This document shows, in pieces, positions 4,400-61,963 of a stretch of 64,000 nucleotides of DNA. Positions within the stretch are counted from its first letter, which is position 1, and every line of letters starts with the position of its first letter. The translations under genes were made by a program, and so were the position numbers. A model generated the notes under the pieces. That model had not been told where the DNA came from. It searched no databases and saw only the letters and a program-made list of their open reading frames with translations. This DNA comes from Bacillota bacterium (GTDB lineage: Bacteria > Bacillota > Dehalobacteriia > UBA4068), in NCBI GenBank assembly GCA_050949225.1, contig JBMNFI010000001.1, positions 596,378-660,377 of the forward strand. Direction: 5' to 3'.

Positions 4400-4518
4400 C
4401 TTTTATTAACCTCCTTTTCGTCCGTAATTGTTTACGAACATTCTCCATGGAAAAACCTGCCTCTCTGCCAAAGATCAGCAGCAACCTCCCACTTCATCGC
4501 AGTCCATTTTTATAACTT

Positions 4519-4554
4519 CAGTATGTATGGGCAATTCTTTGCCCATACATACTG
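4519..4554 (-). terminator. Strong perfect 16-bp hairpin between tuf and rpsJ (cagtatgtatgggcaa / ttgcccatacatactg); no U-tract, so a processing/attenuation element or a weak terminator
   Basis: Inverted repeat seen directly in the sequence. The flanks are not U-rich. Confidence 0.4.
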
Positions 4555-4571
4555 ATAAAACCCTCTTTTAA

Positions 4572-5774
4572 CTACTCACTCACAGAAGAAACAACCCCGG
4601 CTCCCACTGTTCTGCCACCCTCACGAATAGCAAAATGCAAACCAGCTTCAATAGCAATCGGGATAATCAATTCTATTGTCATCTTAATGTTATCACCGGG
4701 CATTACCATCTCTACTCCCTCAGGAAGATGTGCTACGCCTGTTACATCTGTAGTTCTAAAGTAAAACTGTGGCCTGTAACCATTGAAAAACGGCGTATGA
4801 CGACCGCCCTCTTCCTTGGTCAAAATGTATACTTCCCCTTCAAATTTCGTGTGTGGCTTGATGCTGCCGGGTTTAGCTAAAACCTGACCTCTTTCCACAT
4901 CCTTACGCTCAACACCGCGCAATAAACAACCTACATTGTCGCCGGCTTCTGCAAAATCTAACAGCTTGCGGAACATTTCCACCCCGGTTACAACCGTAGA
5001 ACTCGTCTCTTCCTGTAAACCAACAATATCTACTGTATCTCCAACGCTGATAGTTCCTCTTTCCACACGACCGGTAACAACTGTACCACGACCCGTAATG
5101 GTAAAAACGTCTTCTATCGGCATCAAGAAAGGTTTATCCTTATCTCTTTCAGGTGAAGGAATGTATTCATCAACTTTATCCATCAGCTGCCATATCGGAC
5201 TGCAATCCTCACAATCACGAGACCCGCAACCGCATTGCAAAGCTTTTAAAGCTGAGCCGGCAATAATTGGGGTGTCATCTCCGGGAAATTCATACTCGGA
5301 AAGCAGCTCTCTGATTTCCATCTCTACCAATTCCAGTAATTCTTCATCATCTACCTGGTCTGCTTTATTCATGAATACCACAATATAAGGTACTCCTACT
5401 TGACGTGCTAAAAGGATATGCTCTCTGGTTTGAGGCATTGGACCGTCGGCTGCACTAACAACCAAGATAGCTCCATCCATCTGAGCTGCACCGGTAATCA
5501 TGTTTTTTACATAGTCGGCGTGACCGGGACAGTCTACATGGGCATAATGCCTTTTTTCTGTCTCATATTCCACGTGTGATGTATTAATCGTAATACCACG
5601 TTCTCTTTCTTCCGGAGCTGCGTCAATCTGATCATAGGCCTTAACCTCTGCTCCTCCTGCTTTTGACAAGCACAAAGTAATTGCTGCCGTCAAGGTTGTC
5701 TTACCGTGATCCACGTGACCAATTGTACCAATGTTTACGTGCGGCTTTGTTCTCTCAAATTTCTGTTTTGCCAT
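4572..5774 (-). CDS. tuf: Elongation factor Tu (copy 1, str-operon copy)
   Basis: 400 aa starting [28 protein letters not shown], with the GHVDHGKT and DCPGH GTPase motifs. Follows fusA. Confidence 0.97.
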
Positions 5775-12200: not shown

Positions 12201-12911
12201 CTCCGGCGGAATTACCGGCAACACAGTCAAAATCATCCATTCCGGTTGGTTACCGGAAGACAAAAAGGCTTCCACAACTTCTAAACGCCGAATTGCCCGA
12301 ATCTTTCTCTGCCCACTTACTTCCTGAAGCTCTTGGCGCAATTCAGAGGCCAATTCATCCAAGTCAATTTTAGCCAGCATGGCTTTAATCGCCTCAGCTC
12401 CCATGCCGGCAACAAACCCCTGTCTATATTTTTCTCTGGCCTCACGATATTCCGTTTCCGTCAAAATTTGCATCGCGGATAAGTCGGTCTCGCCGGGATC
12501 AATGACAATATAAGAAACAAAATACAACACTTTCTCTAAGTTGCGCGGAGAAAGATCCAATAATAAACCGATCCGGCTGGGAATCCCTTTAAAATACCAT
12601 ATATGTGAAACCGGCGTGGCCAGCTGGATATGACCTAAACGTTCACGCCGCACCTTGGCTCTAGTGACCTCAACCCCGCAACGATCACAGATAATACCTT
12701 TATAACGAACACGCTTATATTTACCGCAATGGCATTCCCAGTCTTTTGTGGGTCCAAAAATCTTCTCGCAAAACAGCCCGTCACGCTCCGGCTTTAAGGT
12801 GCGATAGTTAATGGTTTCCGGTTTTTTTACTTCACCATGTGACCATTCTAAAATCTGATCCGGTGATGCAAGCGCTATTCTCATTCTATCAAAATTACTG
12901 ACATCCAACAA
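9264..12911 (-). CDS. rpoC: DNA-directed RNA polymerase subunit beta'
   Basis: 1215 aa, containing the NADFDGD catalytic motif ([13 protein letters not shown]) and a Zn-finger [23 protein letters not shown]. Confidence 0.97.
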
Positions 12912-17671: not shown

Positions 17672-17880
17672 TCCCAGCACCCCCTCTCTAAAATTATTTA
17701 ATTTTTGCAAAAATAATAGCCCTCGCTCCCGGGCAAGGGCTGACAATACCTCTTTGATCACAACAGATTGATCACAATAGGGCATTAAAAGCTCCGGCCT
17801 CGGTTGGCGTAAACAACTTACCCTTTAAAAGGACCAACTGTCTTGGGCACTGCTATTAAATTAATCAAGAATACGATATG
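17672..17880 (-). promoter_or_regulatory. rplJ leader region (expected L10(L12)4 autoregulatory leader)
   Basis: A ~200-nt untranslated gap between rplA and rplJ, where Firmicutes carry the L10 leader. The fold was not verified. Confidence 0.35.
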
Positions 17881-20009: not shown

Positions 20010-20160
20010 CTACTTCGTTTCTTTATGAAGAGTATGAGTTTTGCAGAAGCTGCAATATTTCTTTAATTCGATTCGATCAGACGTTGTTTTTTTGTTCTTA
20101 CTAGTCATATAATTACGTCTTTTACATTCTGTACAAGCCATTGTAACGGCTACTCTCATG
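20010..20160 (-). CDS. rpmG: 50S ribosomal protein L33
   Basis: Not in the ORF track because it is under 60 aa. The reverse complement translates to [49 protein letters not shown], which carries a 4-Cys zinc ribbon. Confidence 0.9.
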
Positions 20161-20274
20161 CTTGCCATCTCCTTATAGACATATTACCTCACTATCTAAG
20201 GAGGCACTTAATAAATTTATCATATTCAACCATACCTGTCAAGGAAAGATTTATAAAAAGTTTTATAAATATCC

Positions 20275-20308
20275 ACAAAAATCCCCTTGTCCGAAAATAA
20301 CAAGGGGA
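20275..20308 (-). terminator. Rho-independent terminator downstream of tuf copy 2 (stem tccccttgt / acaagggga plus UUUUU)
   Basis: Hairpin and U-run read on the minus strand immediately 3' of the tuf stop. Confidence 0.6.
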
Positions 20309-20323
20309 TTTTAAGATGCTAAA

Positions 20324-21526
20324 CTACTCACTCACAGAAGAAACAACCCCGGCTCCCACTGTTCTGCCACCCTCACGAATAGCAAAATGCAAACCAGCTT
20401 CAATAGCAATCGGGATAATCAATTCTATTGTCATCTTAATGTTATCACCGGGCATTACCATCTCTACTCCCTCAGGAAGATGTGCTACGCCTGTTACATC
20501 TGTAGTTCTAAAGTAAAACTGTGGCCTGTAACCATTGAAAAACGGCGTATGACGACCGCCCTCTTCCTTGGTCAAAATGTATACTTCCCCTTCAAATTTC
20601 GTGTGTGGCTTGATGCTGCCGGGTTTAGCTAAAACCTGACCTCTTTCCACATCCTTACGCTCAACACCGCGCAATAAACAACCTACATTGTCGCCGGCTT
20701 CTGCAAAATCTAACAGCTTGCGGAACATTTCCACCCCGGTTACAACCGTAGAACTCGTCTCTTCCTGTAAACCAACAATATCTACTGTATCTCCAACGCT
20801 GATAGTTCCTCTTTCCACACGACCGGTAACAACTGTACCACGACCCGTAATGGTAAAAACGTCTTCTATCGGCATCAAGAAAGGTTTATCCTTATCTCTT
20901 TCAGGTGAAGGAATGTATTCATCAACTTTATCCATCAGCTGCCATATCGGACTGCAATCCTCACAATCACGAGACCCGCAACCGCATTGCAAAGCTTTTA
21001 AAGCTGAGCCGGCAATAATTGGGGTGTCATCTCCGGGAAATTCATACTCGGAAAGCAGCTCTCTGATTTCCATCTCTACCAATTCCAGTAATTCTTCATC
21101 ATCTACCTGGTCTGCTTTATTCATGAATACCACAATATAAGGTACTCCTACTTGACGTGCTAAAAGGATATGCTCTCTGGTTTGAGGCATTGGACCGTCG
21201 GCTGCACTAACAACCAAGATAGCTCCATCCATCTGAGCTGCACCGGTAATCATGTTTTTTACATAGTCGGCGTGACCGGGACAGTCTACATGGGCATAAT
21301 GCCTTTTTTCTGTCTCATATTCCACGTGTGATGTATTAATCGTAATACCACGTTCTCTTTCTTCCGGAGCTGCGTCAATCTGATCATAGGCCTTAACCTC
21401 TGCTCCTCCTGCTTTTGACAAGCACAAAGTAATTGCTGCCGTCAAGGTTGTCTTACCGTGATCCACGTGACCAATTGTACCAATGTTTACGTGCGGCTTT
21501 GTTCTCTCAAATTTCTGTTTTGCCAT
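20324..21526 (-). CDS. tuf: Elongation factor Tu (copy 2, upstream of rpmG-secE-nusG)
   Basis: 400-aa protein, 100% identical to copy 1. The nucleotide identity coincides with the CDS. Confidence 0.97.
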
Positions 21527-44167: not shown

Positions 44168-44176
44168 AAACTTACT

Positions 44177-44292
44177 CCTGGCAATGACCTACTCTCCCAA
44201 GGGCTCGCGCCCCCAGTACCCTTGGCGCAGAAGAGCTTAACTACTGTGTTCGGTATGGGAACAGGTGTGACCTCTTCGCCGTAATCACCAGG
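44177..44292 (-). rRNA. rrf: 5S ribosomal RNA
   Basis: The reverse complement, cctggtgattacggcgaagaggtcacacctgttcccataccgaacac...gagagtaggtcattgccagg, matches the 5S consensus. Confidence 0.9.
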
Positions 44293-44435
44293 AAACTTTT
44301 TTACTTATCTTAATCTTTCTGTCTTAACTATTTTCAGTTAAAGTATTTTGGCAATCCCTGCCTCAATTAGTATAACCCATATCACTATTTTTAGCAATAT
44401 GATCAAATCTTTAAAAACTACATAGTGAATTTTTT

Positions 44436-47520
<3,085 letters not shown>

Positions 47521-47943
47521 AATCTTGATAAATTTCTATTCCGTTTATCTTTTCTATCTCTTGCTCGCTTACTTAGTAATTTCTGTAATACCTGATTCCT
47601 ATACTCTTCTTCTCAAAAAATATAGTAACCAGCTACCTCATCACTTTCGCTTGCGCTTCACTATGCAGTTTTCAAAGATCTAAACTCCAGAGAAGTCTCT
47701 GGGAACTAAACAGTAAACTGAGCCATTAATCGACCTAGGAAATATCCATATTCCTTACCACCAACTTAGTATAACTATGTCATCACCTTCTGCATAATCC
47801 CTAACATACCTGAGTATGCCTACGGTTTACGCCTCGGCTCTTACTTGTTTTACTTGTCGCCAGTAGGAATATCTGAGCGATTATACAGACTATGTCAACA
47901 ATCTGTCAATACACTCAACAGCTCTTAAACGCCGGGATGTGCT

Positions 47944-49533
<1,590 letters not shown>

Positions 49534-61692: not shown

Positions 61693-61963
61693 GCCGTGCT
61701 AGACGGGGCTTTAGCGGCGCCTTGTAGCCTCCAATCCGCTACAGGAGGGTTGATGCTTTTTTTGAGGGTATGTCTTGTGGGGTCTGCCTTTGGCAAGCAG
61801 TGATGATAATTGGGTCCCGTGCGACGAACTGACGTGAAACCCGTCAGGTCCGGAAGGAAGCAGCGGTAAGCGTATTTTGTTTCGGGTGCCGCGGGAGTGC
61901 CTGGTTGGAGCCGGCTATCAAAGTTACGCCCGGAAGATTTTATTCGAAAAAAAGGTGCACGGC
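61693..61963 (+). ncRNA. ffs: Signal recognition particle RNA, large Bacillus type (scRNA, ~271 nt)
   Basis: The 5' GCCGUGCUAGACGGGG... and 3' ...AAGGUGCACGGC ends pair with each other. The invariant domain-IV motif GUCAGGUCCGGAAGGAAGCAGC is on the plus strand, and the partner strand is GUGCCGCGGGAGUGCCUGG. Confidence 0.85.

What the first reader, a model, noticed from the sequence alone, without database searches (positions are those of the whole stretch)
5202..5234. EF-Tu carries a CxCx4CxxC four-cysteine insertion in the GTPase domain
Most EF-Tu, such as E. coli (ALKALEGDAEWEAKILEL), have an acidic loop in the GTPase domain (after ALKAL...). Both copies here instead read [30 protein letters not shown]. 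This adds about 6 residues and four Cys in a zinc-knuckle-like spacing, giving a 400-aa protein against the usual ~394-396. The same 33 nt are present in copy 2 at 20954-20986. A metal-binding knuckle in EF-Tu would be unusual and could confer redox or zinc sensing on translation elongation.
Basis: seen in the sequence. Interest (0 to 1): 0.55.

Follow-up and report, generated by a model that had tools for sequence, protein, structure and literature searches.

The report
Four-cysteine metal-clip loop in EF-Tu
Both copies of the translation factor EF-Tu here carry a conserved four-cysteine loop that probably binds a metal; the loop is real and occurs in many mostly anaerobic bacterial phyla, but I found no study or solved structure of it.

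Summary
Both tuf genes (4572-5774 and 20324-21526, minus strand) are 100% identical and encode a 400-aa EF-Tu. It reads ALKALQ-C181-G-C183-GSRD-C188-ED-C191-SPIW, five residues after the G5 guanine-binding motif SAL.

The loop is not unusual.
- It is present in 118 of the 120 nearest homologues.
119 of the 120 hits were EF-Tu, from Bacillota, Dehalococcoidia, Desulfobacterota, Nitrospirota, Thermoleophilia, Omnitrophota, Planctomycetota, Patescibacteria, Aquificota and others.
- With the loop masked, these proteins still group by phylum. That argues for an old, vertically inherited trait with repeated losses.

In a sample of same-length loops chosen without regard to cysteine, the four positions behave as a set: 28 had all four Cys, 61 had none and none had two. 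The three 3-Cys cases replace the missing Cys with His or Asp.

AlphaFold places the loop confidently (pLDDT about 90) between two helices.

No solved EF-Tu structure has the loop, and ten literature searches found no description of it.

Best reading: a structural Cys4 metal clip, most likely zinc, that stiffens the segment after G5. It resembles the C+/C- forms of ribosomal proteins and adenylate kinase. Metal binding itself is inferred, and redox or zinc sensing is untested.

The parts
4572..5774 (-). tuf copy 1 (EF-Tu, 400 aa), lying after fusA and before the S10 leader and rpsJ
   Evidence: ORF. PDB EF-Tu hits reach E=8e-217. Pfam PF00009, PF03144 and PF03143 match, and the neighbours are EF-G and S10.
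5202..5234 (-). Four-cysteine loop C181-G-C183-G-S-R-D-C188-E-D-C191. Codons: C181 5232-5234, C183 5226-5228, C188 5211-5213, C191 5202-5204.
   Evidence: Translation. All four Cys are present in 118 of 120 nearest homologues. All-or-none pattern. pLDDT is about 90, with a coil at 182-191 between helices 175-181 and 192-204.
5247..5255 (-). G5 guanine-binding motif S174-A175-L176, five residues upstream of Cys181
   Evidence: Sequence, invariant in alignment A1. That SAL is the G5 motif is established knowledge of EF-Tu.
5529..5531 (-). Cys82 (in DCPGH), the residue through which the known oxidative inactivation of EF-Tu acts. It is separate from the four-Cys loop.
   Evidence: Position. Its role in Synechocystis and chloroplast EF-Tu is from PMC10212517.
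20324..21526 (-). tuf copy 2, identical to copy 1 at all 1203 nt, lying before rpmG-secE-nusG
   Evidence: Neighbours L33, SecE and NusG.
20954..20986 (-). The same four-cysteine loop in copy 2
   Evidence: The 33 nt are identical to those of copy 1.

Best explanation
The loop is a structural mononuclear metal site, most likely Zn(Cys)4. Cys181 caps the short helix that follows the G5 motif SAL. Cys183 and Cys188 sit in a tight Gly-containing turn. Cys191 caps the N-terminus of the last G-domain helix. A bound metal would tie these four points together and turn a surface loop into a rigid clip next to the guanine-binding element. That would stabilise the G domain and possibly tune nucleotide affinity or exchange. 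It is the cysteine-containing (C+) version of a loop that other lineages build without metal: the acidic loop of E. coli, the long loop of Thermus, and Cys-free loops of the same length. The trait looks old, is inherited vertically within phyla, occurs mainly in anaerobes, and has been lost repeatedly. Shown here: the sequence, its conservation, its distribution, the all-or-none pattern and the predicted secondary-structure setting. Inferred: that metal is bound, which metal, and the stabilising role.
For: (1) The four Cys are present in 118 of 120 nearest homologues (86-100% identity), while the positions between them vary, with 3 to 8 different residues per position. (2) A metagenome sample anchored only on the flanks gave 97 unique loops of the same length: 28 with four Cys, 61 with none, 0 with two, and 5 with a single Cys (four of them a different loop type, ECxSTDP). 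The three 3-Cys loops replace the missing Cys with His (twice) or Asp (once), which can also bind metal. Independence of the four positions would predict about 1.1 four-Cys loops. (3) The position after Cys2 is Gly in all 118 and Gly or Ala in the unbiased set, as expected for a tight turn. (4) AlphaFold gives block-mean pLDDT of 91, 89 and 90 for residues 171-200, with helix 175-181, coil 182-191 and helix 192-204. A CxxC at a helix N-terminus is typical ligand geometry. (5) The same pair of half-sites occurs in this window's RpoC (ECHCGK...CDRCG, CxCx12CxxC). That this RpoC motif is a known zinc site rests on established knowledge, not on a test here. (6) The loop occurs in at least 15 phylum-level groups, and 119 of 120 pattern hits are EF-Tu. 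With the loop masked the proteins cluster by phylum, and the C+/C- state needs 10 changes on the tree against about 36 when shuffled. (7) Cys-free loops of the same length that keep the SRD/SRE core exist (ESADNSRDNADV, EAEDSSRDNEAS, ESSDGSRENKEA), as expected for C- descendants. (8) It is not tied to thermophily: rRNA GC is 53% (16S) and 50% (23S).
Against: No metal was measured. No coordinates were available, so sulfur-sulfur distances could not be checked. The overall AlphaFold model is weak (mean pLDDT 65.7, from a shallow alignment) even though the loop itself scores well. Four ligands within 11 residues is a very compact arrangement for a mononuclear site, and I know of no identical spacing in a solved zinc site. 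EF-Tu is among the most abundant cell proteins, so one zinc per molecule would be a very large demand, which is odd for sulfidic, zinc-poor habitats (inference). The sequences are related to each other, so the all-or-none counts overstate the number of independent events.
Confidence: 0.68

Rival explanations
1. The Cys4 site is a regulatory redox switch. Oxidants would release the metal and form disulfides, unfolding the clip next to G5 and switching EF-Tu off. Translation in strict anaerobes would then stop on oxygen exposure, by the same principle as the CxC...CxxC zinc centre of Hsp33.
For: The taxa carrying the loop are mostly anaerobes, such as Dehalococcoidia, Syntrophomonadaceae, Moorella, Desulforudis, Geobacteraceae, Desulfobacteraceae and Omnitrophota. 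The loop has been lost in many lineages. The CxC plus CxxC arrangement matches that of Hsp33 (established knowledge). EF-Tu is a proven redox target in cyanobacteria and chloroplasts.
Against: The known EF-Tu redox control uses Cys82, which this protein also has, so no extra sensor is needed. Nothing here distinguishes a regulatory site from a purely structural site that happens to be oxygen-sensitive. Some carriers are aerobic or facultative, such as Sulfobacillus harzensis, or come from largely aerobic groups (Thermoleophilia, Gemmatimonadota, Chitinophagales).
Confidence: 0.13
2. The site binds iron rather than zinc, as a rubredoxin-like Fe(Cys)4 centre, in line with iron-rich, zinc-poor anoxic habitats. 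It could be redox-active.
For: Four thiolates in a compact knuckle can hold Fe(II) or Fe(III). The carriers are predominantly anaerobes. The abundance of EF-Tu makes a zinc-only site costly (inference).
Against: The spacing is unlike the two CxxC knuckles of rubredoxin. The closest sequence parallel, the RpoC half-sites ECxCGK and CxxCG, is a zinc site (established knowledge). His and Asp replacements are more typical of zinc sites. Sequence alone cannot identify the metal.
Confidence: 0.1
3. No metal is bound. The cysteines act as free or disulfide-forming thiols, for example a CxxC dithiol with thiol-disulfide exchange (chaperone or PDI-like) activity, or structural disulfides.
For: C188-x-x-C191 lies at a helix N-terminus, the geometry of thioredoxin-type active sites. 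A disulfide isomerase-like activity has been reported for E. coli EF-Tu (recalled from memory, not checked here).
Against: A CxxC dithiol does not explain why all four Cys are kept or lost together, nor the His and Asp substitutions. Stable disulfides are unlikely in the reducing cytoplasm of anaerobes.
Confidence: 0.06
4. The loop is a neutral lineage marker, or a sequencing or assembly artefact, with no function.
For: Many bacteria manage without it.
Against: The identical protein occurs in independent assemblies. The Cys are invariant across hundreds of sequences and many phyla while neighbouring residues vary.
Confidence: 0.03

Closest known systems
C+/C- forms of zinc-ribbon ribosomal proteins (L31, L33, L36, S14)
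   Same: A universal translation component exists in a four-Cys form and a Cys-free form, and the Cys are kept or lost as a set. The L33 in this window is itself a C+ form (CTEC...CSFC). The concept is summarised in PMC7873864.
   Different: Those sites are zinc ribbons with two distant CxxC knuckles. Many genomes also carry a Zur-regulated C- paralogue as a backup. Here the site is an 11-residue loop inside a GTPase domain, and both gene copies are identical C+ forms, so no paralogue switch exists in this organism.
Structural zinc in the LID domain of adenylate kinase of Gram-positive bacteria (Cys4), absent from the E. coli enzyme (recalled from memory)
   Same: A housekeeping nucleotide-binding enzyme in which some lineages clip a surface element with a Cys4 zinc and others replace it with polar residues without losing function.
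   Different: A different protein, a different fold element and different spacing (CxxCx16CxxC). In adenylate kinase the zinc is shown experimentally, whereas here it is inferred.
N-terminal zinc-binding site of RNA polymerase beta-prime (CxCx12CxxC)
   Same: The same two half-sites, even in local sequence: RpoC in this window reads E-C-H-C-G-K ... C-D-R-C-G, and the EF-Tu consensus reads E-C-G-C-G-K ... C-x-x-C-G.
   Different: The spacer is 12 residues against 4. There is no evidence of common descent, and the host protein and role are different.
Hsp33 redox-switch zinc centre (CxC...CxxC) (recalled from memory)
   Same: A zinc held by one CxC and one CxxC motif, which shows that such a site can act as an oxidation sensor.
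   Different: In Hsp33 the two motifs are about 30 residues apart and zinc release activates a chaperone. No such switching has been shown or tested for EF-Tu.
Thermus EF-Tu extra loop at the same position
   Same: It is an insertion at the same place, between the G5 helix and the last G-domain helix. Thermus chains are 405 aa and align only from the end of the loop onward.
   Different: The Thermus loop is longer, has no Cys and binds no metal.
Redox control of EF-Tu through Cys82 (Synechocystis, chloroplast cpEF-Tu)
   Same: It shows that EF-Tu activity can be governed by cysteine oxidation (PMC10212517). Cys82 is present here too.
   Different: It involves a single conserved Cys near the nucleotide and Mg site and forms sulfenic acid or an intermolecular disulfide. 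It has nothing to do with the loop after G5.
Zinc knuckle in the G domain of archaeal/eukaryotic aIF2-gamma/eIF2-gamma (recalled from memory)
   Same: A relative of EF-Tu among translational GTPases carries a Cys4 zinc knuckle inserted in its G domain.
   Different: The insertion point and spacing are different and the origin is independent. I did not test this comparison here.

Membership tests
Bacterial elongation factor Tu (tuf) | Full-length similarity to EF-Tu and the three-domain architecture (GTP_EFTU, D2, D3) | tested here: met
   PDB EF-Tu hits reach E=8e-217 over residues 1-399. Pfam PF00009, PF03144 and PF03143 match. The Foldseek top hits are all EF-Tu.
Bacterial elongation factor Tu (tuf) | G1-G5 nucleotide-binding motifs: GHVDHGKT, switch I (RGITI), DCPGH, NKxD, SAL | tested here: met
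   All are present in the translation and invariant in alignment A1.
Bacterial elongation factor Tu (tuf) | Canonical gene positions: fusA-tuf-rpsJ, and tuf-rpmG-secE-nusG | tested here: met
   ORF maps, called neighbours and the S10-Clostridia leader at 4418-4505.
Structural Cys4 metal site with C+/C- evolutionary behaviour | Four ligand residues conserved while the intervening residues vary | tested here: met
   118 of 120 nearest homologues have all four Cys, and non-ligand positions show 3-8 residue types.
Structural Cys4 metal site with C+/C- evolutionary behaviour | Ligands kept or lost as a set, with occasional replacement by other ligand residues | tested here: met
   Among 97 unique loops: 28 with four Cys, 61 with none, 0 with two, and three 3-Cys loops with His or Asp at the fourth position.
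Structural Cys4 metal site with C+/C- evolutionary behaviour | Tetrahedral geometry, with sulfur atoms about 3.5-4 A apart | not testable with these tools
   The AlphaFold job returns confidence and secondary structure but no coordinates.
Structural Cys4 metal site with C+/C- evolutionary behaviour | Metal actually bound at about 1:1 | not testable with these tools
   This needs ICP-MS, EXAFS or a structure. No solved EF-Tu has the loop.
Zinc-sparing paralogue system (Zur-regulated C- backup copy) | A second, Cys-free paralogue in the same genome | tested here: not met
   The two tuf copies in the window are identical C+ genes. The two Formimonas copies are also both C+. The rest of the genome was not available.
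Canonical zinc knuckle (CX2CX4HX4C) | CX2CX4HX4C spacing with a His ligand | tested here: not met
   The spacing is CxCx4CxxC and no His is conserved.
RNA polymerase beta-prime-type CxC...CxxC zinc site | A CxC(G/K) half-site plus a CxxC(G) half-site | tested here: met
   The EF-Tu consensus is ECGCGK..CxxCG. RpoC in the window reads ECHCGK..CDRCG.
RNA polymerase beta-prime-type CxC...CxxC zinc site | About 12-residue spacer, and homology to the beta-prime domain | tested here: not met
   The spacer is 4 residues against 12. No homology is claimed.
Redox-switch zinc centre (Hsp33-like) | Oxidant-triggered zinc release that changes activity | not testable with these tools
   Only the motif resemblance can be seen. 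A biochemical assay is needed.

The most novel reading that the evidence does not exclude
The Cys4 clip is the ancestral state of bacterial EF-Tu. It is present on both sides of the bacterial tree and was inherited vertically. In living anaerobes it makes the cell's most abundant protein a stoichiometric metalloprotein (zinc or iron). EF-Tu would then dominate the cellular metal quota and would be an oxygen-labile point of failure, or a control point, for translation. Lineages that adapted to oxygen or to zinc scarcity replaced it repeatedly. The 'resurrected' ancestral EF-Tu proteins used to infer ancient temperatures, which lack the loop, would then be missing a real ancestral feature.
Probability: 0.12. 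Interest if true: 0.8.

Novelty: new member of a known kind. Interest (0 to 1): 0.5.

Why it matters
EF-Tu is one of the most studied and most abundant bacterial proteins. A conserved metal site next to its guanine-binding element, shared by a large part of anaerobic bacterial diversity, would have four consequences.
- It would add EF-Tu to the list of translation components that exist in zinc and zinc-free forms.
- It would imply a very large metal demand per cell (one metal per EF-Tu molecule), changing estimates of zinc or iron quotas in anaerobes.
- It would offer a simple molecular reason why translation in some strict anaerobes could be oxygen-sensitive.
- It would bear on ancestral EF-Tu reconstructions, which omit the loop.

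The idea is directly testable, because cultured species carry the loop: Moorella, Dehalobacterium, Carboxydothermus, Sulfobacillus, Desulforudis, Thermosulfurimonas and Desulfocarbo.

If the site is only a passive structural clip, it is a modest addition to a well-known theme.

Tried and rejected
- **Literature.** None describes this loop. A 2020 review on zinc and translation mentions EF-Tu only for methylation, and a 2021 review of ribosome zinc homeostasis does not list EF-Tu. Subscription journals are not covered, so 'undescribed' is provisional.
- **Makarova 2001.** I tried to fetch the C+/C- paper by DOI and by a remembered PMC id. Neither is held.
- **Solved structures.** Neither the full protein nor the 39-aa loop segment found an EF-Tu chain with the Cys loop.
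- **Short protein query.** The 76-aa query returned only fragments. It was useful for loop variety but not for taxonomy.
- **AlphaFold and Foldseek.** Foldseek only confirmed the EF-Tu fold.
- **Closest Cys-free relatives.** P0006 and P0012 lie on very low-coverage, frameshifted contigs, so no full-length sequence or taxon could be obtained.
- **Readings rejected.** Thermophile adaptation: the rRNA GC is mesophile-like. Zinc-sparing paralogue pair: the two copies are identical. Fe-S cluster site: the spacing is unsuitable, though this rests on inference alone. Assembly artefact: the identical protein occurs in independent assemblies.

Full report
**1. The observation**

Window 5202-5234 on the minus strand translates to [11 protein letters not shown]. 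The same 33 nt recur at 20954-20986. They lie in two 400-aa ORFs, 4572-5774(-) and 20324-21526(-). The two ORFs are identical at all 1203 nt, and the identity stops within 0-2 nt of the ORF ends.

The protein is an ordinary EF-Tu in every other respect:
- PDB EF-Tu chains match at up to E=8e-217 over residues 1-399.
- It has the three Pfam domains.
- All G motifs are present.
- The two genes sit in the canonical places, fusA-tuf-(S10 leader)-rpsJ and speE-like-tuf-rpmG-secE-nusG.

The cysteines are C181, C183, C188 and C191 (CxCx4CxxC). They start five residues after the G5 motif S174-A175-L176. Relative to E. coli-type and reconstructed EF-Tu the loop is 5 residues longer. The sixth extra residue of the 400-aa protein is near position 254.

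The identical protein is found at both genomic places in independent JGI and Logan assemblies, so it is not an assembly artefact.

**2. How widespread it is**

The full-length search was not conditioned on cysteine. It returned 120 nearest clusters (86-100% identity), including Bacillota MAGs, Dehalobacterium formicoaceticum and Candidatus Formimonas warabiya. Of these, 118 carry all four Cys. The two exceptions are over-long (485 and 514 aa). Within these 118, the four Cys and Gly184 never vary, while the other loop positions show 3 to 8 different residues.

A degenerate DNA pattern for A-x-K-A-x-x-C-x-C-G-x3-C-x2-C was run on one genome per GTDB species. Of the 120 hits, 119 lie in EF-Tu.

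The record titles name these groups:

| Group | Named examples |
|---|---|
| Bacillota | Moorella, Pelotomaculum, Desulforudis, Sulfobacillus, Syntrophomonadaceae, a Negativicutes MAG |
| Chloroflexota | Dehalococcoidia and other Chloroflexota |
| 'Deltaproteobacteria' | Geobacteraceae, Pelobacter, Desulfobacteraceae, Desulfocarbo |
| Thermodesulfobacteria | Thermosulfurimonas |
| Other phyla | Nitrospirota, Thermoleophilia, Omnitrophota, Planctomycetota, Patescibacteria, Aquificota, Acidobacteriota, Armatimonadota, WOR-3, Gemmatimonadota, Leptospiraceae, Chitinophagales |

It is a common variant of EF-Tu, mostly in anaerobic lineages.

**3. Do the four cysteines behave as a ligand set?**

I scanned metagenome contigs with a pattern anchored only on the flanks: GSALKA[LMI], then 22 free residues, then DxYIP. 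This samples loops of the same length whatever their content.

Among 97 unique loops, the counts at the four positions were:

| Cys at the four positions | Unique loops | Notes |
|---|---|---|
| 4 | 28 | the full set |
| 3 | 3 | EHGCGSRDCPDC and QHGCGDERCESC have His for Cys1; ECGDGKEDCPHC has Asp for Cys2 |
| 2 | 0 | |
| 1 | 5 | four are an unrelated ECxSTDP loop type |
| 0 | 61 | |

If the four positions were independent, about 1.1 four-Cys loops would be expected. The sequences are related to each other, so this is not a formal probability. Still, the all-or-none pattern plus replacement only by other metal-ligand residues is what metal sites show.

Cys-free loops of the same length that keep the SRD/SRE core also exist: ESADNSRDNADV, EAEDSSRDNEAS and ESSDGSRENKEA. 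They look like C- descendants of C+ ancestors.

**4. Structure**

AlphaFold2 was run on an alignment of 118 close homologues. The overall model is mediocre (mean pLDDT 65.7), but the block-mean pLDDT is 91, 89 and 90 for residues 171-200. DSSP gives helix 175-181, coil 182-191 and helix 192-204.

This places Cys181 at the end of the helix after G5. Cys183 and Cys188 lie in the turn. Cys191 lies at the N-terminus of the last G-domain helix, a typical position for a CxxC ligand pair.

No coordinates are returned, so the sulfur-sulfur distances could not be measured. Foldseek only confirmed the EF-Tu fold.

No solved EF-Tu chain carries the Cys loop:
- E. coli-type and reconstructed 'ancestral' proteins have a 5-residue gap there.
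- Thermus EF-Tu has its own longer, Cys-free loop at the same place.

**5. Evolution**

I extracted 135 near-full-length EF-Tu sequences from the fetched loci and added the window's protein (136 in all). I masked the loop and built a neighbour-joining tree.

The sequences cluster by the taxon named in their records, with Bacillota, Dehalococcoidia, Deltaproteobacteria, Thermoleophilia and Omnitrophota/Planctomycetota each grouping together. The window's protein sits inside the Bacillota group, next to a Clostridiaceae MAG and a Negativicutes MAG.

The C+/C- state needs 10 changes on this tree, against about 36 (minimum 30) after shuffling.

This fits vertical inheritance within phyla, an old origin or old transfers, and several losses. 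The sample was enriched for C+ by design, so the inferred C+ root is not reliable.

The trait is not tied to heat. The window's rRNA has 53% (16S) and 50% (23S) GC, typical of mesophiles.

**6. Mechanism**

The best-supported reading is a structural mononuclear Cys4 metal site, most likely zinc. It would clip together the end of the G5 helix, a Gly-containing turn and the start of the last G-domain helix. That would make the segment next to the guanine-binding motif rigid, stabilising the G domain and perhaps tuning nucleotide affinity or exchange.

- Shown: the sequence, its conservation, the all-or-none pattern, the distribution and the predicted secondary-structure frame.
- Inferred: metal binding, the identity of the metal and the stabilising effect.

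I put this at about 0.68.

The rivals are:
- A regulatory redox switch, about 0.13. Its weakness is that the known redox control of EF-Tu works through Cys82, which is also present here (PMC10212517).
- An iron (rubredoxin-like) site, about 0.10.
- Metal-free thiol or disulfide chemistry, about 0.06. Its weakness is that it does not explain the four-fold all-or-none pattern or the His/Asp replacements.
- No function or an artefact, about 0.03.

**7. Comparison with what is known**

In kind, this resembles the C+/C- forms of zinc-ribbon ribosomal proteins (reviewed in PMC7873864). From memory, it also resembles the Cys4 zinc in the LID of Gram-positive adenylate kinases. L33 in this window is itself a C+ form.

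In local sequence, the nearest parallel is the zinc site of RNA polymerase beta-prime. RpoC in this window reads ECHCGK-x10-CDRCG (CxCx12CxxC), against the EF-Tu consensus ECGCGK-x2-CxxCG.

Four features set it apart from those systems:
- It is not a canonical zinc knuckle, because the spacing is not met.
- It is not part of a zinc-sparing paralogue pair, because both copies are identical C+ genes.
- No homology to the beta-prime domain is claimed.
- Whether it behaves like the Hsp33 CxC...CxxC redox centre cannot be tested here.

**8. Novelty and limits**

Ten full-text searches found no paper describing a Cys4 or zinc site in EF-Tu. Two reviews that link zinc and translation do not mention one. 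No structure exists. Subscription literature is not covered, so an older description may exist.

I rate the finding as a new member of a known kind, namely Cys4 structural clips with C+/C- evolution.

It is more interesting than a routine case for three reasons: EF-Tu is so abundant that one metal per molecule would dominate the cell's metal budget (inference), the trait spans much of anaerobic bacterial diversity, and the published ancestral EF-Tu reconstructions lack it.

Noticed in passing
window 4572-5774 and 20324-21526: The two tuf genes are identical at all 1203 nt, while their flanks differ from the first base outside the ORFs. This is the signature of ongoing gene conversion between tuf copies.
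   Followed up: partly
window 20010-20168 (-): Ribosomal protein L33 (52-aa ORF) is a zinc-ribbon C+ form, with CTEC and CSFC motifs. The organism therefore uses Cys4 forms elsewhere in its translation apparatus.
   Followed up: no
window 12678-12734 (-), RpoC residues 60-78: RpoC carries [19 protein letters not shown] (CxCx12CxxC). Its half-sites ECxCGK and CxxCG resemble the EF-Tu loop consensus ECGCGK...CxxCG.
   Followed up: partly
window 44176-49532 (-), 61694-61962 (+), 17704-17865 (-), 4418-4505 (-): Rfam finds a 16S-23S-5S rRNA operon, a large SRP RNA, an L10 leader, and an S10-Clostridia leader between tuf copy 1 and rpsJ. The rRNA GC (16S 53%, 23S 50%) points to a mesophile.
   Followed up: partly
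proteins P0123-P0240, and loci such as L016, L036, L096: Many relatives carry a fifth cysteine two residues after Cys4 (C-x-x-C-K-C-I-W). It is absent from the window's protein (S-P there), and its meaning is unknown.
   Followed up: no
PDB chains 6i8r, 6htw, 6gfu, 5w76: The best PDB matches are reconstructed 'ancestral' EF-Tu proteins. All lack the Cys loop, although the loop's distribution suggests it may be ancient.
   Followed up: no
loci L166, L218 and one further metagenome locus: These are natural 3-Cys variants with His (QHGCGDERCESC, EHGCGSRDCPDC) or Asp (ECGDGKEDCPHC) at a ligand position. They would be useful for testing metal binding.
   Followed up: partly
window ~4520-4555 and ~20270-20310, downstream of each tuf copy: A GC-containing inverted repeat follows each tuf stop codon (GTATGTATGGGCAAAGAATTGCCCATACATAC and CCCCTTGT...ACAAGGGG followed by a T run). 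Both look like terminators or attenuators ahead of the next operon.
   Followed up: no
window 4936-5388 (+) and 20688-21140 (+): A 150-aa ORF runs antisense inside each tuf copy. It is a mechanical by-product of the coding strand's composition, not a gene.
   Followed up: no
locus L097: This was the only one of 120 genome pattern hits that is not EF-Tu. It is a chance match in a Spartobacteria MAG, which shows how specific the pattern is.
   Followed up: yes
loci L245, L246 (contigs encoding P0012, P0006): The Cys-free loops closest to the window's (ES[AK]D[ND][ST][17 protein letters not shown]) lie on very low-coverage, frameshifted contigs from one ENA sample. Their taxon could not be determined.
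   Followed up: partly
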